Source of the DNA: Moniliella sp. 'wahieum'
Lineage: Eukaryota
Direction of reading: 5' to 3'
DNA: 64,000 nt
Assembly: GCA_003971905.1 (NCBI GenBank)
Contig: RSEE01000049.1
Location: 372,001-436,000 of the forward strand
Of the stretch, positions 5,889 through 55,689 are shown one piece after another. The notes beneath the pieces were generated by a model. That model saw nothing but the letters and a program-made list of their open reading frames with translations. It made no database searches and was not told the DNA's origin. The position numbers and the translations under genes are program-made. Every line of letters begins with the position of its first letter. Within the stretch, counting starts at the first letter, position 1.

Positions 5889-7836
5889 GGCAGCGAGCTT
5901 GTCGGCGTCACGGGGGGCGAGGGGAGCCCTGCGTCGGCTGGGACGCCGGTGCGGGGCTGGGGGAGGGGGAGGGGGCAGGGTTAGGGGCTAGCATGGCGCT
6001 GTCAACCCGGGGGGTGGCCGCTTGAGCTTGAGCTGGGTTTGGCTTGGGCGTGGGCTTGGTCCGTACAGGGCGGAGTGAGGGCCAAGGCTTGAAGCTTAGA
6101 TGGCACGGCTGCGATCGATGGGCGATGGCGGGGGGAGAGGGTGGGGGGCGAAGGATGTGGGGCTGGGTTTTGAAGCGGCTAGCCTGGGAGGAGCGGACGC
6201 TGGGCAGACAGCAGTGATAGCCCCGAGGGCAGCAGGCGCTGCACGGGGCAGGTGGCGAAGGGGCGCAAAGGGATACGGGGGGGAGTGTGCCCGTGTGCCG
6301 GGGCCGTACTGAGTACACTGAGAACCGAGTATGGAGTACAGCCAGTACCCAGGACAGATCTGCGGGCGATCGCGTGTCTGTGCTGGGCGGTGCTGTGTGG
6401 TGCGGGAGCCCGCAGCGCAGCGCAGACCAAACCAAACGGCACGATGCGAAACGAAACGAAACGCAAAATGCGATGCGGGCGAGCTAACGAGAGAGCGCGA
6501 GGGCGGCCCAGCTGTCATGCCGGGCTGTGCGGCGCGGTGCTTTGCTGTGGCGGCGGCGGCGAGGAGGGGGGAGAGCGGGAGGAGGAGGGGCGGGCGATGA
6601 TCGATGATGGATGACCGATGATAATGACCACCCACTGTGTTCCTGCCGGCGGGCCACCCGCCATGCCGCATGCCCTCGCAGGCGCCCCCTTGAGGCGCCC
6701 GGTGGATGCTGCCTGCCCGCCGCACCAGGCCGCAGGAGCGGCTGGACGGCGCACGTTGAGACAGAGCCCAAGGCTGGAACGGCGCGACGCACAATGCGTG
6801 CCCCCGTGCCCCCCTGTCCCCCGCAGCACAGCAGCCGCTGCAGCGATCTGGCAGACTGCCTCCGTGCAGCTGCATTGGCCCGAGGCCCATGCCTGATTAA
6901 ATACAGCAGTTCAATCTTCGTATTCATCAAGCTTCGAGCATCAAGCGAGTATACCGCGGCTGCTGGCTGTCGCTGGCCTCGGCCACCATGCATTCATGCA
7001 TCATGCGTCATGCGTCATTACATCATGTCTCCGCCTCTCTGATGCAGAGCTATATCGCTACTGCGACCATGCTCCTTCCCCCACACGGCCCACCAGTGAC
7101 GGACAGGGGGAGCGACGCTTCGTCAAACTCGGTATCACCCAGTACCTAAGTAACGCCTCTATAGAACGCGTAACGTAATTAGTAACTGCAGTAATATAAA
7201 CGTTCCTCCGCATCCGCCATATCTCGCGCGTAATCGCAATCATCTGCATCCAATCAGGAAAACCATTAATCAAGTCTCTCTCCACATGCTTTTCAAGCAC
7301 CAGAGAGGGAGAGAAGAGGGGGGACAGGAGGGGACAGGTGTGCCAAAAGTAACTTCTGCCGCCGTGGATAATGCATGTAACCCCCGAGTCCCGATGATGT
7401 GTGGACCTGACAGAGGATGCTGCGGAACGAGAGATGCTGGATTCGATTGCGTGAATCAAACTGGGAAGCAACGCGCAGTGCACGGTGGGGCCTCAGAGTC
7501 AGCGCTCCACGCTACGAGGCCACAGCGCCCCTCAGCTGAGGGCTGAGGCTCAGCAGCGCGCCCAGTACGGTGGAGTGTTGTCGCTCCACAATGAAGACTT
7601 CTGACACCGTGGGCGTTTTTGCGTTCCGTCCTATCGAGAACCGGCTCTGATTCAAACACCTGTGGGGAGAGAAAGAGGGTACAAAAAAGAGGCATGCCAT
7701 CCACGACAGAGATAGCATCGGGATAATCGATAAGATCGATAAGACGCAGAGAGAGTAGCAACAAAAGCTATTACAATCTCCTGTATCTTCCCCGGGCCCT
7801 CCTATTCCAAAACCGACATCTGGCAACTAAACCAAC

Positions 7837-27829: not shown

Positions 27830-30800
27830 TTACTCCATCCGGCGCCGTTTATGGTCGCCTTCCTCGTCAGCCGACCTTTGAGCATCAAGCCGCCAGGGAT
27901 TCGTCCCAACTGGCCTTGCTGAGCCTGCGCACGCCGTTGCTGGTAATGGTTCAGCCTGCGATTGGGACAGGAAAGGTCCCACGGAAATGCGGACCGGAAC
28001 AGTCGTTGCAGATCGGGTGGGAAGTGTGGCCGTGGCTATTCCTGCGGCTCTGGCTTGGCTCTGGCTCTGGCTGGGGAGCGGGGGACGAGCAAGATGGGTC
28101 GGGGAAGAAGAGCGGGCATCACGACCCGAGACTTCCGGTTCCCGTCCTACATCCGCTTCTTCCTTTTCCCCAAAGCTGGTGGACCCTTTGCGTTTGGAAG
28201 GGACGGCAGCCGCGCCCGAGCGTCTTGCACTTCGGTCCCACCCGCCCGAGCGCGGGGGCGAGGTGGGCGAGACCGAGGCCAACGCGTGGCTCTCTGACCG
28301 GGACGAAGCTCGACGTGGCGAGGGCATGGAAGGCAAACTTTCCCACTCGGACGCGTCGCTCGTGTCCCCCCGTCCACTGGCGGTAACGAACAACGTGCCT
28401 TGGCAGCCACGTGCGACGTACCGCCACTAGGGTCCGTCCGTATGGGCGACGTGCGCCCGGGCCCGGAGACCCAGCCAACTGCGAGGGTGCACGACGAGGG
28501 TCCGAGGTAGTTGAACCAAGGGCGTTGGGAGGAGGCTTGGATGCCCCGCTGGTGCCGTGGGAGTGGCCGACCTCGATTGGGATGGGGATACTCCCCAACG
28601 GGATGGACGAGGCAAGCGGTCGCCGAGGAAGCGCATGTCGTTGTCGTGGGCACTGCACCATTTCCCGATTGGGTTTGCTTCTTCTGCAAAAACGGGGGTC
28701 GAGGGAGGGGTGTCGAAGACGGTGCCCTGACCGTCACGCGGGCGGGAAGAGAAACTTCGGCTGAGCCATCTGCGCGAGGGGCGTGGAACCTTGACCAGCG
28801 GGTGCACGGCCGAGGGAGATGGCACGTCTGTTACTTGCAGACTGGTACGACGAGAAGAGGAAGCCGAATGCGTCGAGACGGTGGCTCGAGCAGCGTGAGC
28901 CCCCAGTCAACCTCGACGGTCTGCATTACCATCATCTGGTAAGATCCACTTGATGCCTGTCTCGCCGAGAAGCGTTCGGTAAAGAGCTGGACAAACTCGG
29001 TCCAACTCATCTCCGAGTCGTCCTGGTCAAAGGCTTGGACCAGCTTGGTGTACCATCTTGCAGGCGGACCCGAAGGCAACACAGCCGAGATGGCTTGTAG
29101 CCGCTCGGTTCCGAAAGAGACGCATGCACGCCCTCCTGCACACGAAGCCAATGACGGGCATCGGTCGTACTGTGCCGCTCGAGCGAGCGGAAACGGGGAT
29201 TCCGTGCGGTGGATCCGGCCTGCGCTTCAACATCAGTACCTGCCGACGGCAGTATTACAGACTGGGTGTTCGAAGCAGAGGGAGACTTTGAAGAGAGGGG
29301 CGGAGCAGAAAGGGGGCGAAGCAAAGGACATGGTTGGACTGACAGGCTTTTGCAGGGAAGCAAGAACCAAGTTTTGATCGTCGTCCAGATCCATCTCACT
29401 TACCGAGTCTCTGGGGCGATTCACGTCGCGACGCTCGACTGCTTCGAGAACGACTGACGATCCTGCGATGTCGCGTAGCCGTCTTACCCTGCTGGAACGG
29501 ACGGCCTTCATGCGCTGATGCGTTTCTTTGCCCTGTGTTGTTGCCGAACCGATTGAGCCTGGAGCGGGGCTTGGGTGGTTGCGACGAAGAGGCTTGCTCC
29601 GCATCTTGAGCCCTTGCTGGCGTCGGTGCATCACATTGGTCTTGTGTGCTGGCTTTGCCTCTTGGGTTCCGCTTGGCCTGGTGTGCCTCGGGTCTGTTGA
29701 TCCCGTGAGTGGGCTCAGACTTAGGCACCTGCGGCGAGTGGCGCGCCTCAACGGCTTGCTGCCATGAGCAGTATCCTGCTGAGGTGAGGTTGTAGACTTG
29801 CCTGGCGGGCCCGCTCGGTCTGTTTCACCACATAGTCGTGATTGTCCTGCCGCGCTTGCTTGTCTGCTGGGCTTGCTTGGGTTGCTGGGCTTGTTGGGCT
29901 GGGCTGCTTAGGCTGCGGGTTTGTGGGCCGCTTAGGTTGCTGAGTCTGCTTTGCCTGTTTGGCCTGCTTTGGTTGTTTAGCCTGCTTGGTTGTGGGTCTG
30001 CTTTGGCTGCTGAGCCTGCTGCTGGGCCTGTGAGACCACTGGGCCATTGGGTCCACTGGGCCTGCTGTTGGGCGAGAGGTGGAAGAACCAGTGGGCCTGT
30101 TGGGCTGAGTACAACTGTGGGACCTGAGGTGGCTGCTGTCCTTGGGCCCCCGGCCTGGCCTGTTGATCCCAACAGACCGGGGGCCTGCTGGATCGGTTGG
30201 ACTCCCGGTGTCAGCGCGGGCATCGCATTCCAAGTCCAAGTCAACTGAGCCGTTTCCATTTGGACCATCGTCCGCACGTCTTCCCGCAGCGACGACCAAG
30301 CCAGCTCGACCGCTGCTTGGCTCGCTGTCTTGGCCCCCTCATCGATCAGCGGCCGGAGCTGTTGTTCCACTTCGGCGAGGAAGAGGGGCCGCAGCTCCTT
30401 GGCCATTTCAACGTGAAGCCAGGGACGCAATTCGGCTTCCAACTCGGTACGAATTTGTGGTCGCAGTTCCTGTTCTACCTCGGCGCGGAGGTGTGGTCGC
30501 AGTTCGTGTTCCACCTCGGTGCGGAGTTGTGGTCGCAGTTCCTTGGTCATCTCGGTGCGCAGTTTGTTTGTGAGGGTGTCCAACAGTTCCGCTTGTAATT
30601 GCGTACGAGCCTTGTCCACCTCTCCGGGCACTCGCTCCTGTACCCATTGCATCGCTTCCGACTGGACTGCCTTGGTCACGTCAGCGGTCACCCCCGACGT
30701 TTCCATCGCGTTGGTCAAGGAGCTGCAAGAGAGCAAGGTCGAGTTGACTTGTTCTTCCGTGCGAGCCAACACGTCTCTCATCACCTGTTCCCGCACTTCA

Positions 30801-31442
30801 GACAAGGTAGTTTCCTGTGCCTTTTGCATCTCCTCAATCCGCGTACGCCAATCGTTTTCCAACGCTTGGATGCGTTCTCGGTATTGGCCGACCAGGCGCG
30901 TTGGTTGCGCGCCTCCTCCTTGGTGGACTCGGTCAGGGCGCTGCTGACGGCCACCAGGAGTTTGTTGAACAACTCTTCCTTCAACCCTCGACTTTGGTCC
31001 TGCGTTCGTTCCACCTCCTGACCAGGGCTAGCACCACCTCTTCCACCTGCTGGAACGAATGGCCGAGGTGCAACGACCACTCGGCCCCGACCATCTGGAG
31101 CTTTTGGGTCATCACGCTGGAGGCCAATCGTTTAGCCTGGACCGTTGCGCGCTGCGACAGGCCCTGGCCCTCGGGCAGTGGTTTGGAAGGCGCCGTTGTC
31201 GCTGTATCACGAAACGGTGGGCGGGTAGGATCGGACCAGCGCTTGACCAGATCGTTGATCACTTTCTTCCATCCGAGCGTCGAGGTACGCGAGTGGCCGC
31301 CACTCGTGGTGGACAGTCCACTGCTTCTCCGAGGTGGCCGCGTGGAAGTAGAGGCGCTGCGGCCCATGATGCGCACCCCCATCTCCTCGTTTGTGTGCCG
31401 CCCGAGCGCGGGGAGGTCGAGAGGCAAGCTGGTGTCACCCAT
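27830..31442 (-). CDS. Long hypothetical protein: N-terminal coiled coil with 12-aa repeats, low-complexity linker, and a retrotransposon Gag-capsid-like segment
   Basis: Chain of overlapping minus-strand ORFs (30981-31442, 30781-31080, 29825-30862, 29007-29399, 28831-29151, 27830-28393). The segment PRFRSL...DARHWL...LPSGPPARWY...MSWTEFVQLFTERF resembles Ty3/gypsy Gag CA patterns. Confidence 0.55.
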
Positions 31443-32603
31443 GGTCGCGACAGGATGGACGTGGGGGGTGGGTCAGTGGGGCGTGGACACACGAGGCGGA
31501 GGGAGGGAGGGAGAGATGGATGGATGGGAGGGAGGGAGGGGCAGGTGGAGGGCGGATGCGGGGTGCAAGAGGGAAGCGATGGTGGGGCGGCTGCTGGGCT
31601 GGGCTGGGCCGGGGGATTGGCGAGCGAGGGAACGTGGAACTGAGATAGGGGACGACGGGGCGGGGGAGGAACAGTCCAGTTGAACGTTGCAGGTGCAGTT
31701 GAACGTTGAACCGAGCCTAGCGGCGCTGCTGGGCGTGGCCGTGCGCAGCGCTTTCTATTAGCCATGCCCAGTACGTACGGCGCCTGTCTCTGCACTACGC
31801 CACTGTTCTGCCCCACTTCTCCTGGATCGGGGGTGTAAGCTGCAGGCACCGCACACAGCCGTCCAACGCCAGAATGGCCCAACGCCTAACCCACAGCGCG
31901 CTACTGCCACCGGTTTGAACGTCTGAACCCTGCATTCATCATGCATCATGCATCATGCATCATGCATCACGCGCCACCTGGATGATTCCCGCACACCACG
32001 CGTCACGTGCATCGCACGTTAGCCTGACGCTCCGGCCTCAAGAAGCGCTCCGGCCACCTGGACTGCTTTCCCCAACTCGCATGGGACTCAATCTTAAGCC
32101 GGGGGAGCCCTTGGTGTCAGATCTCAAGAGGCGTTGAACGTTGAGGTTGAGGTCAAAGGTCAGAGAGGTCAGAGGTCAGAGACGAGGCGAGTCGATCGGT
32201 AGGGGCGCCTGGCAAGGTGCAACCCAAGCTACCTCCCGAAGGCACGCACACGCACGCACGGCCCCAACTAAGAAATTCAAGATTCGAGTATACCACCAGG
32301 GCCCATGCGCCCATGAGAATCGATAAAGTCAAATCATCAAAGCAGAGTAGCGATCCAATCGTACACAAAGAACAGCCGAGCAAACGGGGCACACCCATGT
32401 TCCTCGAGGAACGTGCGGGGGAAGGGGGGGATAATAAGGGAGCGGCAAAGGGGTAGGATAAGGGTAAGAGGAGGGTAAGGGTAAAAAGCCAGGCAAAAGG
32501 GGGAACCGAGCCAGGCGAAAAAAAGGAGGCCGGTGAGAAGGAAGCTCAATTCGATTCGATTCGAGCCGAGTCGAGCCGAGTTGGTCGAACGAAACTTCAA
32601 CCT

Positions 32604-34941
32604 TCAAGCAGTCTCGTCCGGAAGCGAGGCGGATGCGGCCGGGTGGGGCGACTGAGACGCCGGGGACGGCGTTTCGGAGGAAGGTTTGGCCAGGATAGCC
32701 TCAACGTCCGTCGCTTGCGTTTGGTCCTCCTTCAACGCGCCGACAATCGCATCAATCATCTTGAACCCCAACGATCCCTGTGGGAAACAAATGTAGGCCA
32801 CAATCTCGTGCGACGCACCAAACTTGGTCCGGAACGAACCCTTGGACGCCAAATGGAACGTCTTGCTCAGTGCATTGTACGCGGCCGTGACGGTGGTGAA
32901 ACGTAATCCCACATGCAGGTTCCGGCCAGGTTTCAGCTCCCCGCCCGAAATCCCAAACGAAAGCGAAGTACAGACCGGACGCTTACTTTCGTCCCACGTC
33001 GCAGACGCTTTGTCCAGTCCTTGAAGCGGGAACAGAGCGGCCGAGGAAGTGTCGACGCTCGAGGCAGTAGATCGGACTTGCATCGGCGTCGACTCTTGGT
33101 CCGCCAAGACCGTCGCTTGCGGCGTCGAACCATCCGGGGTAGGCTGCTCCGACGTGGGCGTCTCCGTACCGGCCGCGGGGGCATTCGTCGGTGGCGCCTG
33201 CTGGGCCTCGGCAAGCTTATCAACCGGCGCTTGCACCGCAATGATCTTACCCGGCGCACCATCCACCTCGGCGGCAGGAGGGTCTTGCTTCTCCTGAGTC
33301 GGTTCCTCAGCTTGAGGCTGCGCTTGGGCATGAGCTTGGGCTTGGGCCTGAGCGGCCTCTTGGCGCGCCTTGCGTGCACGCCGCGCCTTTTCCCGGTTGG
33401 ACAGCGGCTTATCTTCCTCCTGCTTCTTCTTGGACGGGGTAGGCCAGTCGGGCGAACCAGCATCGCGCAACCGCTCAATCACATGCACAATCAAGCACTC
33501 TGACGTGCCCTTGACGTCCTGATCAAACTCCAGCAACCACTTGACCACGTACTTGCCCTCGGCAATCGGAGCCAGCACACACATTCCCACCACCTTCTCG
33601 TCCTCGTGGTAGTCCAGCAGCACATTGGGTACACTCAAGTTGGACTGGCTGGTGACACGGCTGTTGGAAGTAGCGGGAAGCGTGACGTTGCTCACGGCCG
33701 TTTTGCTCGGATGCTGAAGCTCGTCCTCATCGTCATGAGGCGGGATACGAGGAGCGACAGCGTAAAAGTACTTACGGTTGGTCAGGTCGCGCCACGGTTC
33801 GGTATCGGACGCATGGATCTGGGAGCCCTTGGCCGCCTTGGACTCCTTCCACGTCAAAATGCCCTCTTCGACGTGGTCGCGCGTCAGGGCCGAGGAGCCA
33901 TCGAGGATTGGATCGGGGAACCGGCCGTGGGCCTCAACGATCCGCAACCCCTTCCGATGCGCCTTGCGCAACTTGGTCCGCACAAACTTTTCCGCTTGCT
34001 CCACGTGAAACTGGCGTGGGTCCACCGCGTCCTCATGAATGCACGTCAGCGACGACCAGTCCAGTTTCGCCCGGGGTGAGCGTCGTGGCATTACCTCCCA
34101 GCGGCTCGGAACCGATCCGATCAGGGAACGAACGGGTCAACACGTCCATAAAGTCTTCCGAGCAACACGACCACAGCGGCTTTTTGCCCTCCGACTCGAT
34201 TTGCTGCACCCAGCGCTGGGCAACGTACGCATAGTTGTCCGGGTGGCACAGCGGGTTGCCCCAAGCGATCGCATACGTCTGCTTGCCATCGGGCGAATTG
34301 AGTAGGTAGCCCACATAGGCAAACTTCTCGATCGGGTCTATCGTAGGCAAAACAGGATGTCAGCAACTTGCCTGTCCCAGTGGGTTTGCAGTGCCCCAGA
34401 AACAACCAAACCAAAACCCAGAACCCAGAACCCAAACAAAAAACAAAAATAAAACCGAACCCCAACAAAAGGTACGTACCGTGTCGCCGCTCAGCGGGCA
34501 GAGGCAGCTCAAAGATGGTGTACATCGGTTCGGTCCAGGCAGTGTTGGTGGCTGTGCCGTACAAGGGCAACAAGGTGGGCAAGAGGGGTAGGTAGCAATG
34601 TTGCCCGAGCCAGGCTCGTGCAGTCGACCGTCATTGGAGAACAAGTCGCGAAACTGCGCCGGAATGGTGTCGGAAGACCCGGCGGGGGTCACATCGGCAT
34701 CCCCGGCACCTGTGCTGGACGCGGGAGGATCCGCGTCCGTTGTACCGGAAGCAGTGTCATGGTCAGCGCCACTGCTCAGGCTGGAATGGACCGGATGGGG
34801 GTGGCCCAAGCCACCTGGGTGCAGATGGGACGAAAGCTTGTGCCGGATGGAGCCCAAGTTGTGCGACAGACGCCCGCCGTTGAACGAGTGCCGCGGCGAG
34901 GCTGGCGGGGACCCATCGAGCGAGGGTCGGATGGCGGACAT
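32604..34941 (-). CDS. Free-standing DUF2156 / LPG_synthase_C (dupli-GNAT) aminoacyl-tRNA transferase of the fungal ErdS type, intron at about 34339-34479
   Basis: LYGTATNTAW, YVGY, AIAWGNPLC, KKPLW, WSSLTC, VRTKLRKAHRKGLRI, WKESK..GSQIH....PWRDLTNRKYFYA, VKWLLEF....GTSE.LI, SLSFG, KGSFRTKFGA and YICFP..SLG occur in the order I recall for the ErdS C-terminal domain. Confidence 0.82.
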
Positions 34942-37413
34942 GGAGGCGCGGGGAGACGAGGTCGAGGCGCGCGACTGCTGCACGCTCTTGCGGGGTGCGG
35001 CGCGAAGCGTCCCGGCTAGGCCGCGGGCTGGCGCTGGGGGAGGGGTTGGCCGGGTCCGAGCCGTCGGGCGCGTGGGAATGGAGGGAGGGAGAGTGGGTGT
35101 GGTGCGAGCGCAGGCGCGTGCGGAGAGCGTCGAGCATAGTGGGCAAGGGATGGAGGGGGTAGCCTGGTGTCGCAGCAGGTGGTGGCGGGGGAGGGTGGGG
35201 GCGCGGACCGGCTTGGCGTTCGGTTGCACTTGCCTGTGGTAGCCCGTGGATCGGCGATAATTGGGAGGGCCGTGGGTACACTAGCCTGCTGCGGGCGGGC
35301 AGAAGGGCAGGCGTGGGTGGCCCGGGGGCGGTCTTGGGCTGGGATCGATCATGGATCATGCAAGTGCATCATGCATCCGACACCAACGTAGGCACCACCA
35401 GCACTGGCCGAATGCGGCCGATGCCACGGGCCACAACTGGGCCTTCGAAGCTCCAACCTCCATGGAGATCGGTTGCGTAGCTCCGATTCTAAACGTACGC
35501 GGAATATGCCACACTCTGGCAAAGCGCACACTGCCCCCACGCGGCAGAACACGCATACATGCGGATGCATGATGCAAGCATGCACAGGCCCTGTCTGCAC
35601 GTGCAAGGGGGCGGTGCTCGGGACAGTCGCATGTCACATGTCATGCATGTCCTGCATGTGCAGCTGCAAGCTGCCATGGTGCCTTGCAGCTTCCTTCTTG
35701 CCACTTGAGCGCTTCTCCCTGCAGACAAACAGGGGGGGCGGGTACTGGGTGGCAGTCGCACGCCCGCGGAGCAGGACCGCAAGAGACAGCCAGACCCAGC
35801 TGTGGCCTGCGGCAGCATCAGTGTGGCCTGCTGGGACTAGCATGCATGCATGACGACGCGGGTGACAATGACGCGCGTGACGCGTGACGGAAATTCAGCT
35901 GGCAATCCACAGCACTCTGGCACTGGGCGTGGCGTGCGCTTGTTTACAATTTCATACGCCAAGCCGTGCAGCTTGGCAGCTGCAGCTTGCAGAGCGAGCG
36001 TGCTCCGCGCTCCCCCCCGTACCGCGGCATAGAATCCTAGAATATTAACAACCCTGCCGCCCCCCTGTCCAGTCTTGCGTCTTGGTCAACGCGTGTTTAT
36101 GACCAGTAGTATATAGTGACCAGTGACTAGCTAGTCACTAGTGTATATAGTGAGTCGAAGATTCGAGGACTCGAGGATCGGTCTGAAGATCTGAAGCCTT
36201 CCGCCCGCGTTCCTGAGGCCTGACATTGACATGGACATTGTTGACCACCAGTGGTCTAGGTGGTCTAGAGCCCATCGGCCTTCAGTGACACGTGGCCCGA
36301 TGCACACAGTGCACCGGGGCAGTGAGTTCCGGACCTTCCACGGGTTTCCACTGGCCTCCAGGCCAGGAGCCTATCAGGGCCCATAGCTCTAGCTCTCCTT
36401 AGCTCTTGAATGCCATCTCCATCCATCATCGCCAGCATCGCTAGCTAGGCCTGTGACAGACATCGATTCAGAAAGCCTAGCTGGCAGCTTGAAGAAACTT
36501 CCGCCGCGCAGCCCCAGTCCTTCCCCGCATAGATCCAGATTCACTTTTCCTGAGGCAGCCGGAGGTCTGATCGGTGATCGATTGGATCTTTCCAGCGAAC
36601 CACACTGGCCAGACTGCAACCCAGACCGTAACTGCGCGGAATCACGCGCCAACTTGACAAACGTTCGCCGCGCAACGTCCAACGCGCAACGCGTCGATGA
36701 CCGAGGGGTCGTTCGCGTTGTCCGCCTGCTCAGTTACCGGTTATCGATTCTCGATTATCGATTCTCGGCCGAGTGAACGTGAGCGTGAATATTGAATTCT
36801 CGTTGGTGTATCCCGCGGGATACTCGATACGCCCTGGTACGCGGTACGCCCGCGTACGCCCGTGGCCACCGCAAGCTCAGGACTGGCCTTTCATCGGCTC
36901 GTCCGGTGGATCATCATGCATCATGCATCATGCATCATGATGCATGACCGGTGACCCTAAGGCCGAACACATCTCCAGCAACACTAGAGTCGGTTGGACG
37001 GGTATGCCGCACTGGTGTGTAAGGTTGGGTACTCGTCCCCAGCGCCAGCAGCGCGGCCAACAATTACCAAGTGTGTACGCGCATCGCATACCAGACACTA
37101 GACACATAGAAAGGGCCCTCCTACTTCCCCCCCTCTACCTCGCGATCCCCGCCTAGGCCAAACCAGGTCCAACCCCACGCAGTCTACGCCTCCTGCCCAG
37201 GCTCGAGCCTGTCCCGACATATGGCCAGCTATATATCTCGTCACGCGTCACTATGACAGTCTGCGGTTAGACCAGGATGAATGCCACAGGCTCGGATCGG
37301 GTCGGGTCAAAAAAAAGGAATGGGAATCCCGATGTGGAGAGGGGGGCGTGGGTACTATAACGAGAGGGGACCAAGACCAATGCGACGGAATAGGGGTCAC
37401 GACAAGAAGCGAG

Positions 37414-39468
37414 TCAAGGGGTAGGATCGGTTCTGAAAAGAGAGGGGGTCAAGGGACGGTAATGGTGAGCCATACCAACGCGCATCACTATAAGGTAGTA
37501 GTTATTGCCGTCGGATCTGCAACTTGATACACTTAATGGAACACCGTGCCGCGTCCCCGTCGGTTGCGACCGTGCTGGCGCAGTACAGTTGGTGTTCGCC
37601 TTGTGCTTGTTGAAGGCCAAAGGGTACGTTTGTGCCTGTAAGGCCTTGGGCAAGGCGGAGATATAGGGACCAACGGCGCGCGAAGGCGAACTATTGCTGT
37701 GGCTTGCGTTCCGATTGGCCGGCAGGGCATTCGCCTGGCTTGCAACGTGCGGCAAGGGGACAGAGCGGGGCGCGAAGCCTTTCTGTTGCAGTTGGAACGG
37801 GTGGCCCTCGGTGTTGAACACGACCTGGTTCAAGTCGGCCGTGCTGGCGTCGGAAAACGTGAGGTAGAGGTACTTGTACAGTTCGGCATAGGCAAAACTT
37901 TGTTCTTCGTTCACCTGGCCGCGGCGGGAGAGCGCACGTCGTTGATCCCGACCAGACCGTCCTTGAGGCCGACTTTAGGCTTGCACGCGCTTTCCAGCGC
38001 TTCAAAGGCGGCCCAGGCAATCTCTTGCCATTTAGGATCCAGCGTTGCGCGCCACGCATAAAACACCGATTCGAGCACCTCTGGACGCAGCACATAGTCT
38101 GCCATCGAAATCGAGAACCCCCACTGGTCAAATTCCGTTTGGTTGAGCGGAGTGGAAGGGACGTGGTAGGAGCCATTGGCAAAGCGGTAGGTGAACACTT
38201 CCGGTCCCAGCCCCGTCGGCGTCCGGGCATAGGTCTGCGCACACGATTCCGTCACCTCCAATCCGAATGCAAGCAGGGACTGGCTGCCTAGGATCTTGCC
38301 GCCCAAAATCAAGTTGCCACCCACAAAGCATTCGAGGTGCGAGCCTAGCGAGATCAACCCGCCTTGGCTCGGGTCGTAGTCAGCGAGGAAAAGGAGGTCG
38401 GGATGGTGCTGCGGGACAGTAGCCAGCACGCCTACTGTACTTTCACCGTGTCGATCCAAGTATCTATGTAGGCTCCTGACGAGTTGCCCCAACAGTACGC
38501 CGTCTTGAGCAGGTACTCAAAAAACGAGTCGGACCCCCCGCCCCAGGTCATGTAACTATCGGTGGCGGTATTACTGGCAGGATCGATGCCTTGGCCAAAG
38601 AAGCCTTTGGGTCGGGGGTTCATGGTTTGCCGGCTGGTGATGATGGCCTGCATGGCCTTTTTCGCATACGCTTCGTACGTCCCATTGCGCGTGTGTTGGC
38701 TCAACTTGGTCCATTCCAACACGATCGTCCCGGCCTGCGCAATCCCTTGGCCATCCGATTTGTCTACCGTCACAGTCGTGTTCCAGTTCAGCAAGGAGTT
38801 CCACGGAATGTCCTGTCCTTCGACCCTAGATAGCATGCATGGGTCAGTGCCAAAGAAGTACCTTGGTAGTGCTTAGTGCTAGTCGGGCTCGACCGAACAC
38901 GCTGACATAAAATGAGAGCATCCACCAAGCCAAGAAGAAAGGATGTGCCACGTACCAACCACCCAGCAACTTATCTGCCACGCGGGCCGCCTGTTCAATC
39001 AGACCAAATCGCTTGGCCCCGTCCAACTCGTAGGCACTCACCAAGCCGGCAACATACCGAATGTTGGTCTCGAACAAGGAGATCTTGGTCTGACGTTCGT
39101 ACCAAAGTCAATGTTCAGAGCCAAGTTGATCAATTGTTCGCCTGCTCCGTCTGGCCCATAACGAACGCGGGTGGAAATCGCATCAACTGCTGTGGCGCCC
39201 CAATCGCCATACAGGTCGGCAGAAAGGCTGCTGCCATTCGACGTTAGTGCGTCCAGCTCGTCCCCTGGCCAGGCGTAGTGGAGGTAGGCTTCCAGGTTGG
39301 CAGAGAAGGCTTGTTGGATTCGTTGTGCACGCGAGGCGGCCAGAGGCGTAGATGGTAGGAGCTGTCAAACGCTCCGTCGGCCACTACCTTGGGCAGATGG
39401 AGCAGGGCAAAGGCACCGCCCCAAATGAATGTACGCATGGGGGCCTTCCCAGAGCGGATGAGGACCAT
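37414..39468 (-). CDS. Glycoside hydrolase family 47 alpha-1,2-mannosidase with N-terminal signal/anchor and at least one intron (about 38850-38953)
   Basis: WGATAVDA, FETNIRYVAGLVSAYEL, AGTIVLEW, WGGGSDSFFEYLLK, HLECFVGG, TPTGLGPE, YVLRPEVLESVFYAWR, QSFAYAELYKYLYLTF and VFNTEGHP. C-terminal end uncertain. Confidence 0.93.
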
Positions 39469-49408: not shown

Positions 49409-51874
49409 TCACAATGAGGAGGCGCAAAAGGAAGTTCGGAGAGGCCCCAGGCCTCTCTTAGGCCCAAAGGAACGTGATCCACTTTTTCCACGCTGGCTGT
49501 GGGGGATCGGGGGGTTCGGGTTGTCGACAAATTGGATGAGCCAAGGCCGGATGGGCACCTCGGAAAGGGGAGTCCAGTCCCATCCGCTCCAGATTACCTG
49601 GTACCCAACCAACAGGGCCAGATCAAACAGCGGACACGCATATGCAGACACGAGTGTTTCCGCTTTGAAGTGGTGGGGGATGAAAATAGAATAGCCACCG
49701 GTAAGAAGAAAGAGCACACACCCAATCAGCCCAAACCAGGCTGTGTACGGTTGTCCCCACGTCGCCCATGGTAGCTCGGAACGAGGGATGGATTGGCTGC
49801 GCATGCCATAGTACACTTGTAGGCAATTGATGTTGATCACGCCCCAGGTCCAGAGGATGCCAGACGAGCTAAAGGACACGGCCCACTGGAACACTTTTTC
49901 TGCCGTCTCTGTGACTGACATGTAGGACATGGCAATCCACATGCAGATAAACAGCACCGCCACGTACGGAACGCCCCACCGATGCACCCGTAAAAAGATC
50001 TCGGGTGCGTTCCCATCTTGAGCGAGGCAAATCAGGCTGCGGGAACCGTTGAGGATCAGCGAGTCGGCCGCGGACCAGGCCGAGATGAGAATGCCGGCGT
50101 TGATCACCGACTCCAACCCTTTCCACCCGGCGCGATGGGCGGCGACAACAAAAGGGGATCGAGATGTGATGAGAGGGTCGTTGGACGCAACCACCAACCC
50201 AACAAAAAAGCAAATGCTGAGGTAACAACAGAAAATCCGTACAAACACACGTTTCGTTGCCTTTCTCATGCCTCGCCGGGGGGTGCTGGTCTCGGCCACC
50301 AGCAAGGAAATGGCTTCGCAATTGGCATATGAGTAGAGACTGGCAATCGTAGCACTCCAGTACCCGGCAAACCGTCCGGCCGATCCACTTACAATGTGTT
50401 CCGCCGTGGGCCCTGGGTCGTGCCAAAAGTGGAAACCAAGACGTGGGCCAGCACCGGCACCGAGGTCAATGCAGAGGCACACGATGATGATGCCAATAAC
50501 CATGATCAGCTTGATTAAGGCAAAGTAGAACTCGGTCTCGGCCCAGGCTCGTACCACTAGACCAGGTCAGCACATCCATCCCTCCATCCATCCAACCACC
50601 CACTCCCTTCCCCACGTTAGAAAAAAGTGCGTACCAAAAATGTTGGTGGCGACAATGGCCAAGCCGAGGATGGTGACAAAGATGGCGGGAGACAGATCGG
50701 TCCAGAACTGAATCAGAACGGCACAACTGGTCACCTCGCCCGCACAGGCAATCGCATTGTAGATCACTAGGTTCCAGCCTGTTGCAAAGCCCAAACTGGA
50801 GGAACTGAACACGGACGAGTGACGGGCATAAGCACCAGTAACTGGGGCTAGTGTTGTGACCTCCCCCAACGACAACATGGTCGCTGCCACAACCAGACCG
50901 AGGTAAGGTAAGCAAGCAGAAGCAAGAGCGGACCACACCATGAGAGTGTCCTTCCTAGGTTGAGCCATACCCCCACCCCAATCGTCCCTGTCAAAGCGAT
51001 CATTTGCACACTGCACCCGAAGAAAGCAACGGCCAGAGTCCTAGGTTAGCCACATTTGCAAAATGCATGTCGGAAGGGAGGAAGGGTAGAAGGGACGCGT
51101 GACACAGCAGAGGAGGTAAACGTACTGTCGTTGTTGGACGCCAGTCCTCAAGCCATCTTCACGGAAGAACTTGTCGCGTGCAGGCGAGTCGACACGGGTA
51201 AGGTCGCCATAATCCTTCTTGGGACCCGCATAGCGGTCCACGGTATCCTCCCAAGCTTGGCCAAGCGGGCTCGGAGCAGAAGAGGGCCCCGCTTCTGGCT
51301 GGCCTCGCTCCAGATCAAAGGGAGTCTGAATGGGACCATGCAGTTTGACTGGCGAGAGCCACGTGTCGCTTTCGGCATTGACAGAGCGTTTGTCCGACTC
51401 GGTGTAATTCGGCGGCTCGAGGGTCATCGATAGAGATTTCATGCGGGACGCGTTGGTCGGGCTGCGCCACAGAGGCGGCTCGGTCTCCTCGTGCTCGGGG
51501 ATGGTCTCAAACCCCGTGTAGTTCTTTTCGTACTCGTGGGATAGAGGCAGGTGAGGGTTTTGGTCCAGCCCACGCGAAAAGGGAGGGGGGACCCCTGCGT
51601 TGTACCCATACCCTTCGGTGGTGAAAGCCAAGGGGGGGAGATGGGCTTGCGACGGATCGGGTTGAGCGAAGTGGGTTGAGGGCGCAAGTTCGGACAGGTC
51701 AAGCTCGAGTTGCTCAGGATGGTCCAGGTGCTCATCCGATGGTCCGGGGTGGGGTCGTGCGGAGCGGGCCTTGGAGCACCGCGAGCGGGAAGGCGCCCTG
51801 GAAGGGGCGGGCGGGGTGCCAAAGTCAGCCGCCGTGTCCCGACTGCGGCGGCGGAAGCGGGGCAGGGTGGGCAT
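49409..51874 (-). CDS. Amino-acid permease (APC superfamily, yeast amino acid transporter family), several introns
   Basis: LRTGVQQRQ, MLSLGEVTTLAP, SLGFATGWN, AETEFYFALIK, LGFHFWHDPG, AETSTPRR, SPFVVAA, VINAGILISAWSA, SRSL..LAQDGNAP and WGVPYVAV. Confidence 0.9.
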
Positions 51875-53607: not shown

Positions 53608-55689
53608 TTAAAACTTGCGTTTGATGCCTTGCCTTTCTTCTTCGGCACGGTATTCGAACCTGAGGACAAGGAAATGTCAGTCTTCCTTCTTGCCATTGCC
53701 ATCCGCACGAGGTAGAGAGCGGGGGAGGGGGGGGGAGGGGGACGTACATGACCTGAATACCAATGAAGAGTCCGCCAATCGTACCAGCAAAGAAGAGCCA
53801 GCCCGACCAGGATCCCAAAATCTGGTGCCAAAGATACTTGATCCCATCCATACCAATCACAAAGCCCACCAAGTTGGCCGTCATCATCATCAGCACGTTG
53901 CCCACAGCGCCAAAGGCGGCCAAGTGGCGGAACCAAGGATAGCGACCATACTTTTTTGCTGGTAGCAGTGACGTGGCTGCCACCTCAGGGATCAAAGAGC
54001 GTCACAAGCCACGCCCAAGTAAGGAGGGTGAGACTAAGGTCGTGCCAGAGGGCGACAAATGTGAACACCAACAAAGTAGCCAGAACGGAGGCGAGTGGTC
54101 CATGATGGTTGCCCCCGACAGGGATGTAGATGTAGCGCACAACCCATTGGTTGTAGGAACGGTGCCAGGAACGCCAAAAGCCGAGGGTGGAGTAATTGTT
54201 GGCCATACAGCGAACCATGTTTTCCGGTGGATCCACCTGGTCCAGCAGCGCCCACAGACGAAAGAACCGCCAAGGAATCAGTAGCTTGAGCCACACGGTA
54301 ATTAAGCTCCAAAAGCCAATCATGCTCAGCTGCATGGGGGTGTCCCCGTGCCACGCTCGTGCATCCTTGATGGCACCCACATACATAAAATGAAGGATGA
54401 ACTCCATCATCAGGAAGCAGACGACAAACCGCACAATGTATCGCACTTGCACTCCGAGGCCAATCCGAGGAGGGCGGTGCAGTTGGTGCAGCCAGTCGTT
54501 GAATGTCATGATCGGACCGGCAACGAAGAGCGGCGGGTAGAAGATATAGAGAAGGAAGTTGCCATAGCTGTATTGGTTGAGTTTATGGGCTTGGCTGGCA
54601 CGCGCACGGGTACTGTCCAACGGACCAGATGCGTGGGAGTCACCCACTTCACCCTTTTGAACCGCTTGCACGGCCCAGTGGTAGTCGAATGCAAATGAGA
54701 CAAGGCGGAGCATGGTGATGTTGTAATTAATCTGCCAGCGGGTGAGGATGCCCGTATGTCGTTCCTGGGGGATGAGAAACAGTGTTAGAAAAAGAGGTGC
54801 ATGCTTTAGTGGGGAAGGAGTGAGCGCACCAAAAGAGCAAAGAGTGACCCGTACTGGGCGAGGGGGATGCCATTAAAATAGTGGACCAGGTAGAGGGTCA
54901 AGATGTTAAACGTCCATATCACAGTTGGCGTGAGAAAGCGGTGGCCAGCCAAGTGCTTGGCTAGGAGGTAATTGCTGCTACAGCAGGCGAGCAATTTCCA
55001 CACGTTCGTCCCATGCGACACGAGCAGGTACACGGAAGAGAAAAGCGCAAGAAAGACCCTCCTTCCTGGGCGATGGTTGGGAGAAGGAGATGACAGGGCA
55101 ACATCGTTGTCCCCCTGGCTGGTGGATGCAAGAGGCGCAAAGCGTCCTCTATGCCCGCCTGCCGAGAGTCGGCGCGATACAAACTCGACCAGGAAGGAGA
55201 GGGTGAGGTACCCTACGCTGAGCCCCACCAAGACCGGAATTGCGTCGCGAAAGGTGCGGTATTGAAAGTCGGAATTGTCGCGCTTACGGCCTGCCATCCA
55301 TCCTGGGACGAGATAATGGGCGTACTCGTGGTAGTGCTCGTTGCTCTTGGCTCAACTGCATGGGCACATACCACATGTACGGGAAAACAACGGCAAACGC
55401 CAGGGCATAAAAGTAGAACTCAGGTGTGCCCCAGCGCGGTGGTGGGGGGGAGACGGTAGCGTGGACGCAGTAGACACTGCAGATGGACCAGGGGCTGGCG
55501 TGGCGTGCTCTGGGTACCTGCGTCGTTGAGGTTGACCGTTAGGCGGACGAGGTTAGCACGGATCCAGGCAGGCAAGTCGGAGGAGTGGGTGAGGCGGCGT
55601 GTGGTGGATGCGCCCGAGGGCGGGTAGGATGGTGGCGCAGCGGAAGAGTGTGCGTCCATGGGTACGATCGTGTGTGTCGCCGCCGCCAT
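53608..55689 (-). CDS. GUP1: MBOAT-family O-acyltransferase Gup1 (GPI-anchor remodelling / glycerol uptake)
   Basis: RDNSDFQYRTFR, RWQINYNITMLRLVSF, WLKLLIPWRFFRLWALLD..PPENMVRCMANNYS..FWRSWHRSYN.W..RYIYIP, FVALWHD (catalytic His), MMMTANLVGF, and C-terminal FEYRAEE.R. Confidence 0.93.

What the first reader, a model, noticed from the sequence alone, without database searches (positions are those of the whole stretch)
32604..34941. Stand-alone ErdS-type DUF2156 aminoacyl-tRNA transferase with no AspRS domain: candidate new tRNA-dependent lipid aminoacylation enzyme
Seen: a complete DUF2156-like domain is preceded only by about 120 aa of S/P/H-rich disordered sequence (MSAIRPSLDGS...). No class II aminoacyl-tRNA synthetase motifs appear in the upstream 2.4 kb before the GH47 gene. 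Established: fungal ErdS is an AspRS-DUF2156 fusion that makes ergosteryl-aspartate, and free-standing ErgS makes ergosteryl-glycine and was described from Ascomycota. Inference: the motifs here (YGTATNTAW, PWRDLTNRKYFYA, VKWLLEF) look like the ErdS clade rather than ErgS, and the host appears to be a basidiomycete. It may be an AspRS-less paralog that takes cytosolic aa-tRNA, possibly with a different amino acid or acceptor.
Basis: partly seen in the sequence, partly recalled or inferred. Interest (0 to 1): 0.8.

Follow-up and report, generated by a model that had tools for sequence, protein, structure and literature searches.

The report
Free-standing ErdS-like tRNA-dependent lipid aminoacyl transferase gene
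This fungal gene encodes the lipid-modifying half of the known ergosterol-aspartate synthase without its usual fused aspartyl-tRNA synthetase; it belongs to a small uncharacterised basidiomycete lineage with an altered substrate pocket, though its reading frame is broken twice in this assembly.

Summary
The gene is real and lies on the minus strand at 32604-34941. It encodes a complete DUF2156 (double-GNAT) aminoacyl-tRNA transferase domain. The domain matches the transferase domain of solved A. fumigatus ErdS (E=4e-21). No AspRS lies anywhere in the 64 kb.

- One 142-nt intron.
- Two 1-nt frameshifts, at 34585 and 34071.
- Two lineage-specific inserts.

The neighbouring GH47 gene also has two frame switches with no room for an intron. 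Assembly error is therefore likelier than decay.

Named relatives are AspRS-less hypothetical proteins of Tilletiaria anomala and Microstroma glucosiphilum. In trees, all 30 fused ErdS rows fall on one side of a branch and all 19 free-standing rows on the other (90/68).

The tRNA CCA-pocket and catalytic residues are kept. Gln836, invariant in 30 of 30 fused ErdS, is Val in 7 of 7 members of this clade.

Most likely it is an active transferase that takes ready-made aminoacyl-tRNA and esterifies a sterol. The amino acid is unknown. I could not obtain ErgS sequences, so exclusion of ErgS is only indirect. I rate it a new variant of a known kind, of moderate interest.

The parts
34585..34941 (-). 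Piece 1: ATG at 34941-34939, then a 119-aa S/G/P/H-rich N-terminal extension ending in the clade-conserved EPGSGNI motif (34597-34617).
   Evidence: The motif is colinear with P0003, P0107 and P0108. No Pfam family was found.
35117..35137 (-). Possible alternative upstream start (MLDALRT...), in the frame of piece 2. Using it would need a third frame switch before 34941.
   Evidence: GC3 is 0.87 in that frame at 35160-35041. This is suggestive only.
34585..34585 (-). Frameshift 1. Pieces 1 and 2 share this base, so one base is missing in a C run compared with the colinear reading ...GNIATYP|LLPTLLPLYG.
   Evidence: P0003, P0107 and P0108 read through with the same spacing.
34481..34585 (-). 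Piece 2: start of GNAT I, with YGTATNTAW. These are sterol-pocket positions 637-649 in A. fumigatus ErdS numbering.
   Evidence: Alone it is too short to match the PDB.
34338..34479 (-). Intron of 142 nt, with GTACGT donor, CTGAC branch-like site and ATAG acceptor. It splits a GAC (Asp) codon (34480 + 34337-34336).
   Evidence: The ORF-based relative P0001 starts inside the equivalent stretch.
34072..34337 (-). Piece 3: the rest of GNAT I (FAYVGYLL...WGNPLC...SCCSEDFMDVL...TLTP).
   Evidence: It matches ErdS 9w9f residues 667-717, E=1e-4. PF09924 gives E=0.0022.
34071..34071 (-). Frameshift 2: one extra base in a CCCC/GGG run, between ...TLTP and AKLDWSS...
   Evidence: P0001 and P0002 read through in one frame. 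The tblastn HSPs abut each other.
32607..34070 (-). Piece 4 (488 aa): end of GNAT I, alpha(+) helix, GNAT II with two inserts, and the C-terminal tail.
   Evidence: It matches ErdS 9w9e at E=4.2e-21 in two stretches. The AlphaFold2 core has pLDDT 80-95. Foldseek top hits are DUF2156, MprF and FemX.
33945..33986 (-). Positively charged alpha(+) helix (FVRTKLRKAHRKGL), the tRNA acceptor-arm binding element.
   Evidence: The role is taken from PMC13219428, section 10.
33813..33851 (-). CCA-pocket motif WKESKAAKGSQIH. It holds the equivalents of W785, R789 (here K), K790, G791, Q793 and the proposed general base H795, plus a 2-aa insertion.
   Evidence: Roles are from PMC13219428, sections 10 and 13.
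33600..33752 (-). Insert 1 (51 aa). It is shared with P0001 and P0002, and partly with P0003. It is absent from P0004, P0107 and fused ErdS.
   Evidence: pLDDT is about 49-67.
33546..33548 (-). Val at the position of ErdS Gln836, the clade's diagnostic pocket change.
   Evidence: Q in 30 of 30 fused rows, V in 7 of 7 rows of this clade. Q836R abolishes ErdS activity (PMC13219428, section 11).
32967..33455 (-). Insert 2 (163 aa, A/P/Q-rich) inside GNAT II. It begins with DKPLSNREKARRARKAR (33363-33413), which is identical in the window, P0001 and P0002. A basic helix is predicted at 33324-33398. The rest is predicted disordered.
   Evidence: helix at residues 225-249, block pLDDT 84-93.
32817..32837 (-). 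SFRTKFG motif: equivalents of F913, R914 (proposed oxyanion stabiliser) and K916.
   Evidence: Roles are from PMC13219428.
32604..32606 (-). TGA stop codon.

Best explanation
The gene encodes a free-standing aminoacyl-tRNA transferase of the double-GNAT, alpha(+)-helix (DUF2156) type. It is related to the transferase domain of ergosteryl-aspartate synthase (ErdS). It belongs to an AspRS-less lineage found in Ustilaginomycotina-type basidiomycetes.

Proposed mechanism (inferred by homology, not shown):
- It has no synthetase of its own, so it captures an aminoacyl-tRNA already charged by a cytosolic synthetase.
- The basic alpha(+) helix and the W/K/K/G/Q pocket hold the acceptor arm and the CCA end.
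- The Arg equivalent to R914 stabilises the oxyanion.
- The amino acid ends up esterified to the sterol.

Several pocket positions that are constant in fused ErdS are changed here (Q836V, D647E, S644A, R649M). The amino acid, or less likely the acceptor lipid, may therefore differ from Asp and ergosterol.

The lineage-specific basic helix at the start of insert 2 may add tRNA or membrane contacts. That is speculation.

The two frameshifts are most likely assembly errors.
For: Fold and family:
- Piece 4 matches solved A. fumigatus ErdS at E=4.2e-21, and piece 3 at E=1e-4.
- Clade member P0004 matches it over the whole domain at E=1.7e-49.
- Foldseek top hits for the AlphaFold2 model are DUF2156/MprF, FemX and other aminoacyl-tRNA-dependent transferases.

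Architecture:
- No AspRS lies in the 64 kb.
- The gene models named for Tilletiaria anomala (665 aa) and Microstroma glucosiphilum (389 aa) also lack it. The Microstroma model starts 10 aa before the conserved PGSGN motif.

Catalytic residues in the window:
- W785, K790, G791, Q793, H795, F913, R914 and K916 are identical.
- R789 is Lys.
- The alpha(+) helix keeps R/K at 750, 752 and 753, with further R/K around them.

Feasibility:
- The ErdS DUF2156 domain without AspRS still makes the lipid in yeast from endogenous Asp-tRNA, at a lower level (PMC7334510, passage).
- ErgS works free-standing with Gly-tRNA (PMC8913301, abstract and passages).

Selection:
- The window's terminal branch (0.058-0.064) is no longer than those of its sisters (0.041-0.092).
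- A 17-aa stretch inside insert 2 is identical in three species.

Frameshifts as errors:
- Both lie in homopolymer runs.
- The neighbouring GH47 gene has two frame switches where Pfam coordinates abut or overlap, leaving no room for an intron.
Against: - No activity, substrate or transcript was measured. Every mechanistic step is inferred by homology.
- As assembled, the reading frame is broken twice, so a recent pseudogene is not excluded.
- Q836 is invariant in fused ErdS and Q836R kills ErdS. Val at this position could reduce or alter activity rather than retune it.
- S644A lowers ErdS activity strongly, and the window has Ala there. However, 7 of 30 fused rows also have Ala.
- Pfam PF09924 is sub-threshold on the window's pieces and on P0001 and P0002.
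- There is no erdH-type hydrolase (PF07859) nearby that would point to a lipid turnover pair.
- The trees have no outgroup, and the fused/free branch has only 90/68 support.
Confidence: 0.6

Rival explanations
1. It makes the same product as ErdS (ergosteryl-aspartate) and simply uses Asp-tRNA from the housekeeping AspRS. In other words, it is the lineage's ErdS equivalent without the fusion.
For: - The ErdS transferase domain alone uses endogenous Asp-tRNA in yeast (PMC7334510).
- The clade is 29-40% identical to ErdS transferase domains.
- The catalytic and CCA-pocket residues are kept.
- None of the 120 fused ErdS listed (of 142 found) is named for a member of Ustilaginomycotina. This fits replacement rather than addition, but only weakly.
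Against: - Gln836 is invariant in 30 of 30 fused rows and is Val in 7 of 7 here. Asp647 is found in 29 of 30 fused rows and is Glu in 5 of 5 here.
- There is no erdH neighbour.
- PMC7334510 states that Ustilago maydis has ErdS, so a fused form may exist in the subphylum.
Confidence: 0.3
2. It is a basidiomycete orthologue of ErgS, the free-standing ergosteryl-glycine synthase.
For: - It has the same free-standing architecture, with a variable N-terminal extension that lacks homology to known proteins, as described for ErgS (PMC8913301).
- That paper reports one basidiomycete ErgS, in Trichosporon oleaginosus.
Against: - ErgS is only 20.25-22.88% identical to the A. fumigatus ErdS DUF2156 domain. 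This clade is 29-40% identical to ErdS domains, at E down to 6e-89.
- A phmmer search of 1.84 billion representatives with P0001 returned 105 proteins. Of the 45 I scanned with Pfam, 21 carry an AspRS match and 24 do not. The AspRS-less ones with enough domain coverage fall among the free-standing rows of the trees.
- This evidence is indirect. No ErgS sequence could be put in a tree.
Confidence: 0.1
3. It is a decaying pseudogene. The two frameshifts are real.
For: There are two frame breaks in 2.3 kb with no intron that could explain them. A possible third lies near the start.
Against: - The adjacent GH47 gene shows the same defect twice.
- Both breaks lie in homopolymer runs.
- There are no in-frame stops within the pieces.
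- The terminal branch is not lengthened.
- All catalytic residues are intact.
Confidence: 0.12
4. It is a fused ErdS whose AspRS part was lost by misassembly or lies in an unseen upstream exon.
For: About 2.2 kb upstream (35.2-37.4 kb) has no recognisable gene. The assembly clearly contains errors.
Against: - The window has no N.
- 122 of the 123 long queries hit the window, and none matched before its residue 482.
- Orthologues on an 86-kb and a 904-kb contig in two other genomes also lack AspRS.
Confidence: 0.03

Closest known systems
ErdS, ergosteryl-3beta-O-L-aspartate synthase (A. fumigatus AFUA_1g02570; PDB 9w9e/9w9f/9w9g)
   Same: - It has the same double-GNAT, alpha(+)-helix transferase domain (E=4e-21 for the window's piece 4, 1.7e-49 for clade member P0004).
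- Of the nine CCA-pocket and catalytic positions, eight are identical (W785, K790, G791, Q793, H795, F913, R914, K916) and R789 is Lys.
   Different: - It has no AspRS domain and no N-terminal tRNA-clamping helix.
- It lies outside the fused clade in trees.
- Pocket changes: Q836V, D647E, S644A, R649M.
- It carries two inserts of 51 and 163 aa.
- It has no erdH neighbour.
ErgS, ergosteryl-3beta-O-glycine synthase (free-standing DUF2156 of Ascomycota; PMC8913301)
   Same: It is a free-standing DUF2156 with a non-homologous N-terminal extension, and it must take aminoacyl-tRNA from a separate synthetase.
   Different: - ErgS is about 20-23% identical to the ErdS domain, against 29-40% here.
- ErgS is reported almost only from Ascomycota. 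The named relatives here are basidiomycetes.
- A direct comparison was not possible.
Hypothetical proteins K437DRAFT_264063 (Tilletiaria anomala UBC 951, 665 aa) and BCV69DRAFT_270560 (Microstroma glucosiphilum, 389 aa)
   Same: - They are in the same starred clade (100/99*, 7 rows).
- They are AspRS-less.
- They share the PGSGN motif before the domain and the same V836/E647 signature.
   Different: - Microstroma has neither insert. Tilletiaria has only part of insert 1.
- The N-terminal extensions are not alignable.
- Neither protein is characterised.
Bacterial MprF / aminoacyl-phosphatidylglycerol synthases (PF09924; PDB 5vrv, 4v36, 7duw)
   Same: Same fold and the same kind of chemistry. 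These are the top structural matches.
   Different: - It has no membrane flippase domain.
- Sequence similarity is weak (Pfam 17.5 bits; 10-15% identity in the Foldseek alignments).
- The bacterial enzymes modify glycerolipids, not sterols.

Membership tests
DUF2156 / LPG_synthase_C aminoacyl-tRNA transferases (PF09924) | Pfam PF09924 match above the gathering score (27.5 bits) | tested here: not met
   Window pieces reach at best 17.5 bits, E=0.0022. P0001 scores 25.6 and P0002 25.1 bits. Clade members P0003 (39.7 bits) and P0004 (48.8 bits) pass. The split frame and the inserts lower the window's score.
DUF2156 / LPG_synthase_C aminoacyl-tRNA transferases (PF09924) | Two GNAT folds joined by a positively charged helix | tested here: met
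   The sequence matches solved ErdS across 667-717, 720-814 and 864-942. The AlphaFold2 core has pLDDT 80-95, and the Foldseek top hits are DUF2156, MprF and FemX. The basic helix is FVRTKLRKAHRKGL. The first 35 aa of GNAT I are supported only by colinearity with relatives.
ErdS (ergosteryl-aspartate synthase) | N-terminal AspRS paralogue fused to the transferase domain | tested here: not met
   There is no PF00152 in any ORF of >=110 aa or in the gene's own frames. 122 of 123 long queries hit the window, and none matched before its residue 482.
ErdS (ergosteryl-aspartate synthase) | Transferase domain groups with fused ErdS domains in a phylogeny | tested here: not met
   All 30 fused rows are on one side of a branch, and the window with 18 other free rows on the other (90/68; found in 90% of 200 bootstrap trees). 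There is no outgroup, so the direction is unknown.
ErdS (ergosteryl-aspartate synthase) | CCA-pocket and catalytic residues W785, R789, K790, G791, Q793, H795, F913, R914, K916 | tested here: met
   In the window 8 of 9 are identical and R789 is Lys. The residue list is from PMC13219428, sections 10 and 13.
ErdS (ergosteryl-aspartate synthase) | Conserved sterol-pocket residues, notably Q836, D647 and S644 | tested here: not met
   In the window Q836 is V, D647 is E, S644 is A and R649 is M. Y637, T641, T643, W645, N677, C728, E731, W802 and K838 are kept.
ErdS (ergosteryl-aspartate synthase) | Divergently oriented erdH (alpha/beta-hydrolase, PF07859) next to the gene | tested here: not met
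   No PF07859 match was found in any ORF of >=110 aa of the window at E<=1e-5. The family was named from PMC7334510. Small exons could have been missed.
ErdS (ergosteryl-aspartate synthase) | Produces ergosteryl-3beta-O-L-aspartate | not testable with these tools
   This needs lipid analysis.
ErgS (ergosteryl-glycine synthase) | Free-standing DUF2156 with no aaRS and no flippase | tested here: met
   The N-terminal 119 aa are S/G/P-rich, not hydrophobic.
ErgS (ergosteryl-glycine synthase) | Clusters with characterised ErgS (AFUA_8g01260, YALI0E00330g, BBA_06338) | not tested
   No ErgS sequence could be obtained.
ErgS (ergosteryl-glycine synthase) | Only distant similarity (about 20-23% identity) to the ErdS transferase domain | tested here: not met
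   The window is 29-33% identical, and P0107 and P0004 are 34-40% identical, to four fused ErdS domains. The published ErgS figures are 20.25% and 22.88%. The methods differ, so this is indicative only.
MprF / aaPGS | N-terminal multi-pass membrane flippase domain | tested here: not met
   The sequence before the domain is a 119-aa S/G/P/H-rich stretch. No Pfam match lies upstream.

The most novel reading that the evidence does not exclude
This could be a third class of fungal steryl-amino-acid synthase, confined to basidiomycetes, and here to a Ustilaginomycotina lineage. It would take a free aminoacyl-tRNA other than Asp-tRNA or Gly-tRNA and make a steryl-amino acid not yet described. Specificity would be reset by the clade-fixed Q836V/D647E pocket. 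The lineage-specific basic helix in GNAT II would serve as a substitute tRNA-holding arm for the missing AspRS and N-terminal clamp.
Probability: 0.2. Interest if true: 0.75.

Novelty: new variant of a known kind. Interest (0 to 1): 0.5.

Why it matters
Only two tRNA-dependent sterol aminoacylation enzymes are known in eukaryotes. ErdS is a fusion with AspRS and makes Erg-Asp. ErgS is free-standing, largely confined to Ascomycota, and makes Erg-Gly.

The authors of those papers asked how the AspRS fusion arose, why ErgS is distributed so unevenly, and whether other cryptic transferases exist in Dikarya (PMC8913301, discussion passage).

This is a free-standing, ErdS-like lineage in basidiomycetes. 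It keeps the catalytic residues but has a fixed change at a pocket residue that is invariant in fused ErdS. That bears on all three questions:
- It is either the unfused ancestral state or a secondary loss of AspRS.
- It is a ready candidate for a new amino-acid specificity.
- It can be tested with the yeast expression and TLC/MS assays already established for ErdS and ErgS.

The interest is tempered in two ways. Orthologues are already deposited as hypothetical proteins, and nothing here shows activity.

Tried and rejected
- **Introns as the cause of the frame switches.** Rejected. At 34585 and 34071 the homologous residues abut, leaving 0-1 nt between them, and no GT...AG of workable length and phase exists.
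- **Word-based homologue search with the large ORF.** It gave only 2 hits.
- **Profile search with A2.** It gave only 5 hits among 7,999 candidates scored and did not return several of its own members. The candidates were probably swamped by words from the low-complexity regions, so it says little about how widespread the family is.
- **The search for related loci on genome contigs, to fetch bacterial outgroups.** It returned an error (no conserved stretch).
- **ESM Atlas search with P0004.** It only re-found PF09924 clusters and gave no ErgS lead.
- **Supplement search for Tilletiaria, Microstroma, Pholiota, Trichosporon, Ustilago and Basidiomycota in PMC8913301.** No occurrences.
- **Supplement of PMC7334510.** It is a PDF and unreadable here. 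It may list the 'standalone' DUF2156 proteins.
- **Piece 2 alone against the PDB.** No meaningful match, because 35 aa is too short.
- **Repeats flanking the gene as a sign of mobility.** Rejected. The identical 29-nt (CATCATG)n copies at 31936 and 36911 are one of five such intergenic loci in the window.
- **tRNA genes.** None in the window.
Full report
**What is in the sequence**

The finding's coordinates hold. On the minus strand an ATG at 34941-34939 opens MSAIRPS..., and a TGA at 32606-32604 ends the gene. The gene is not a single open frame. It reads as four pieces:
- 34941-34585 (119 aa)
- 34585-34481 (35 aa)
- 34335-34072 (88 aa)
- 34070-32607 (488 aa)

Pieces 2 and 3 are joined by a canonical 142-nt intron at 34479-34338. 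It has a GTACGT donor, a CTGAC branch-like site and an ATAG acceptor, and it splits an Asp codon.

The other two junctions cannot be introns.
- At 34585 the two frames share one base. The residues on either side (...EPGSGNIATYP | LLPTLLPLYGTATNTAW...) are colinear, residue for residue, with P0003, P0107 and P0108.
- At 34071 one surplus base separates ...NATTLTP from AKLDWSSLTCIHED.... P0001 and P0002 read through this point in one frame.

Both breaks sit in C/G homopolymer runs. With X placed at the breaks, the 733-residue reading covers residues 8-358 of the 387-aa free-standing relative P0004. The domain content is therefore complete.

**Are the frameshifts real?**

The neighbouring GH47 gene (37.4-39.2 kb, minus strand) shows the same defect twice.
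- Pfam positions 409 and 413 fall in different frames only 8 nt apart, near 37.92 kb.
- Positions 234-243 are matched in two overlapping frames near 38.45 kb.
- Neither place has room for an intron.

In both trees the window's terminal branch (0.064 and 0.058) is no longer than those of its two nearest relatives (0.041-0.092). All catalytic residues are intact. I therefore read the breaks as indel errors of the assembly. A very recent pseudogene is not excluded.

GC3 is 0.87 in another frame at 35160-35041, which contains an upstream ATG (MLDALRT..., 35137). The true start may lie there, which would need a third frame switch. This is only suggestive.

**What it is**

Pfam alone is weak. PF09924 reaches 17.5 bits (cut-off 27.5) on piece 3 and nothing on the other pieces.

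The decisive match is to the solved structure of A. fumigatus ErdS (9w9e/f/g).
- Piece 4 matches at E=4.2e-21 in two stretches (residues 720-814 and 864-942 in 9w9f numbering).
- Piece 3 matches at E=1e-4 (residues 667-717).
- Piece 2 alone is too short to match.
- The insert-free clade member P0004 matches the whole transferase domain at E=1.7e-49.

An AlphaFold2 model of piece 4 was built on an alignment of 35 rows (mean pLDDT 69.3, pTM 0.62). The core has pLDDT 80-95. Its best Foldseek matches in the PDB are the DUF2156 domains of lysyl-PG synthases and MprF, then FemX and other aminoacyl-tRNA-dependent transferases. The E-values are weak (best 9.4e-4), as expected for a partial domain carrying long inserts.

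**No AspRS**

Pfam found no tRNA-synt_2 in the 281 ORFs of at least 110 aa scanned, nor in the gene's own frames scanned. tblastn with 228 proteins, 123 of them at least 750 aa and nearly all AspRS-DUF2156 fusions, gave one HSP outside the gene. That HSP is at chance level (E=0.005, at 58.5 kb). No long query matched before its residue 482.

The window contains no N. No PF07859 hydrolase, the family of ErdH (PMC7334510, passage), was found either.

**Relatives**

- The word-based search with the large ORF found two unnamed proteins, of 71% and 67% identity.
- A full HMMER scan of 1.84 billion representatives with P0001 found 105 proteins.
- Of the 45 I scanned with Pfam, 21 carry an AspRS match and 24 do not.
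- P0025 has no Pfam AspRS match, but its N-terminus reads like the end of an AspRS domain. I removed it from the search profile A2 and labelled it as fused in tree 1.
- Names came from two later searches. P0003 is hypothetical protein K437DRAFT_264063 of Tilletiaria anomala (665 aa). P0107 is BCV69DRAFT_270560 of Microstroma glucosiphilum (389 aa). P0039 is a Pholiota conissans protein (447 aa).
- P0006 is an AspRS-DUF2156 fusion annotated as cytoplasmic aspartyl-tRNA synthetase, from Laetiporus sulphureus.
- All 120 listed hits (of 142 found) carry PF00152 plus PF09924. The named ones come from Agaricomycetes, one tremellomycete (Naganishia) and Ascomycota. No name from Ustilaginomycotina appears.

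**Trees**

I kept only rows covering most of the domain. The criterion was a match to P0004 starting at or before position 70 and ending at or after 320. This dropped 69 of the 108 matching rows before tree 1.

For tree 2 I chose 49 rows: 20 named fusions, 10 unnamed fusions and 19 free-standing rows. I left out the fragment P0029 and the other unnamed fusions to save time.

Results:
- In tree 1 (39 rows), all 19 fused rows plus P0029 form a starred group (95/88*).
- In tree 2, all 30 fused rows lie on one side of a branch and all 19 free rows on the other (90/68; found in 90% of 200 bootstrap trees).
- The window groups with P0001 and P0002 (100/99*), then with Tilletiaria (100/100*), then with P0004, Microstroma and P0108 (100/99*).
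- A second free-standing group of nine rows (99/97*) includes Pholiota. The long-branched P0034 attaches to it weakly (90/84).

There is no outgroup. The tree therefore cannot say whether free-standing is the older state or a secondary loss of AspRS. The fused basidiomycete rows form a ladder leading to a 100/100* clade that holds all nine named Ascomycota rows. This fits either rooting poorly, and I leave it open.

**Functional residues**

The 2026 structure paper (PMC13219428; I read the abstract, outline, sections 10, 11 and 13, and passages) lists three sets of residues:
- The alpha(+) helix: R749, K750, R752, R753.
- The CCA pocket: W785, R789, K790, G791, Q793, H795, F913, K916. H795 is the proposed general base, and R914 is the proposed oxyanion stabiliser.
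- Sixteen sterol-pocket residues. Q836R abolishes activity and S644A lowers it strongly.

I mapped these positions through the printed P0004-9w9f alignment onto a 49-row alignment. The window keeps W785, K790, G791, Q793, H795, F913, R914 and K916. R789 is Lys, next to a 2-aa insertion.

The helix reads FVRTKLRKAHRKGL. In the alignment, position 749 is Thr while 750, 752 and 753 are K, R and K.

The sterol pocket is partly changed:

| Position (A. fumigatus ErdS) | Fused ErdS rows | This clade |
|---|---|---|
| Q836 | Q in 30 of 30 | V in 7 of 7 |
| D647 | D in 29 of 30 | E in 5 of 5 rows that cover it |
| S644 | S in 22, A in 7, V in 1 | A or V in 5 of 5 (A in the window) |
| R649 | R in 19 of 30 | Q or M in 5 of 5 (M in the window) |

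**Inserts**

Compared with P0004, Microstroma and all fused ErdS, the window, P0001 and P0002 carry two inserts.
- Insert 1 is 51 aa, after PWRDLTNRKYFYA.
- Insert 2 is 163 aa, inside GNAT II between ...RLRDAG and SLSFGISGGEL.

Insert 2 is not free-drifting. DKPLSNREKARRARKAR is identical in all three proteins, and further islands are conserved. The model predicts a helix at residues 225-249 of piece 4, with block pLDDT of 84-93. About 100 disordered residues follow.

**How it most likely works**

Shown here:
- The fold family.
- The absence of AspRS.
- The conservation of CCA-pocket and catalytic residues.
- The clade-specific pocket changes.

Established elsewhere:
- The ErdS DUF2156 domain without AspRS still makes the lipid in yeast using endogenous Asp-tRNA, though at a lower level (PMC7334510, passage).
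- ErgS works free-standing with Gly-tRNA (PMC8913301, abstract and passages).
- The substrate specificity of DUF2156 proteins cannot be predicted from consensus sequences (PMC8913301, passage).

Inferred: the protein captures a pre-charged aminoacyl-tRNA, and the H795-equivalent activates a sterol 3-beta-OH for transesterification. Because Q836 and D647 are fixed differently, the amino acid transferred may not be Asp. I put about 0.6 on an active, free-aa-tRNA-dependent sterol or lipid aminoacyl transferase. Within that, I give roughly even odds between Asp and another amino acid.

**Comparison with the literature and novelty**

I found no paper describing a free-standing ErdS-like clade in basidiomycetes. 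The searches were:
- 'DUF2156' plus 'ergosteryl': 3 papers.
- At least two of 'ErdS', 'ErgS' and 'aminoacyl-tRNA transferase', from 2021 on: 5 papers.
- 'DUF2156' plus 'fungi', from 2020 on: 3 papers.

What the papers say:
- PMC7334510 (passages only) notes that 23% of fungal DUF2156 proteins are 'standalone' and 'often' truncated ErdS forms. It also states that Ustilago maydis has ErdS. Its supplement could not be read.
- PMC8913301 (passages, section 10, and parts 1-2 of its supplement) reports ErgS as absent from Basidiomycota except Trichosporon oleaginosus. ErgS candidates were found there by BLAST with the A. fumigatus ErgS.
- PMC9437257 I saw only in the search listing.

ErgS membership is excluded only indirectly. 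The evidence is 29-40% identity to ErdS domains against the published 20.25-22.88% for ErgS.

**Verdict**

This is a real, probably functional member of an uncharacterised AspRS-less, ErdS-like lineage, and a new variant of a known kind. The 'complete domain' is broken twice in this assembly, orthologues are already deposited as hypothetical proteins, and the paralogue and specificity claims remain untested.

Noticed in passing
window 37417-39107 (minus strand): The GH47 alpha-mannosidase gene is split over several frames. At about 37.92 kb and about 38.45 kb the Pfam coordinates abut or overlap, leaving no room for an intron. These look like frameshifts, which suggests the assembly carries roughly one indel per kb of coding sequence here.
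   Followed up: partly
window 31936-31964 and 36911-36939; also near 6993, 14645 and 44411: A (CATCATG)n microsatellite recurs at five intergenic loci (9 matches with up to 2 mismatches, 0 expected). Two identical 29-nt copies flank the DUF2156 gene. Its recurrence elsewhere argues against a mobile-element boundary.
   Followed up: partly
proteins P0007, P0009, P0016, P0020, P0023, P0027, P0039, P0053, P0087: A second free-standing DUF2156 clade includes a Pholiota conissans protein. It has Ala (8 of 9) or Asp (1 of 9) in place of the proposed general base His795 of ErdS. These proteins may use another base, or none.
   Followed up: no
tree (rows P0176, P0169, P0159, P0205, P0182, P0006, P0227): Fused basidiomycete ErdS rows are not a single group. 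They form a ladder leading to a 100/100* clade that holds all nine named Ascomycota rows. One 'Auriculariales sp.' protein sits inside that clade. This could reflect transfer, contamination or a rooting problem.
   Followed up: no
window 49412-51040 (minus strand): The two ORFs of an amino-acid permease are in the same frame, separated by a single stop at 50567-50569. Their Pfam coordinates are nearly contiguous (135 then 132). This is either a short phase-0 intron or a base error.
   Followed up: no
window 29825-31027 (minus strand): The gene just downstream of the DUF2156 gene is a 400-aa ORF with repeated ELRPxLRxEVEQELRP-like units. It has no Pfam family.
   Followed up: no
window 35117-35137 and 34941-35160 (minus strand): An upstream ATG (MLDALRT...) lies in a frame with GC3 of 0.87.
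   Followed up: partly
window 53988-54872 (minus strand): An MBOAT-family membrane O-acyltransferase gene lies about 19 kb from the DUF2156 gene. Some MBOATs acylate sterols. No link to the finding was examined.
   Followed up: no
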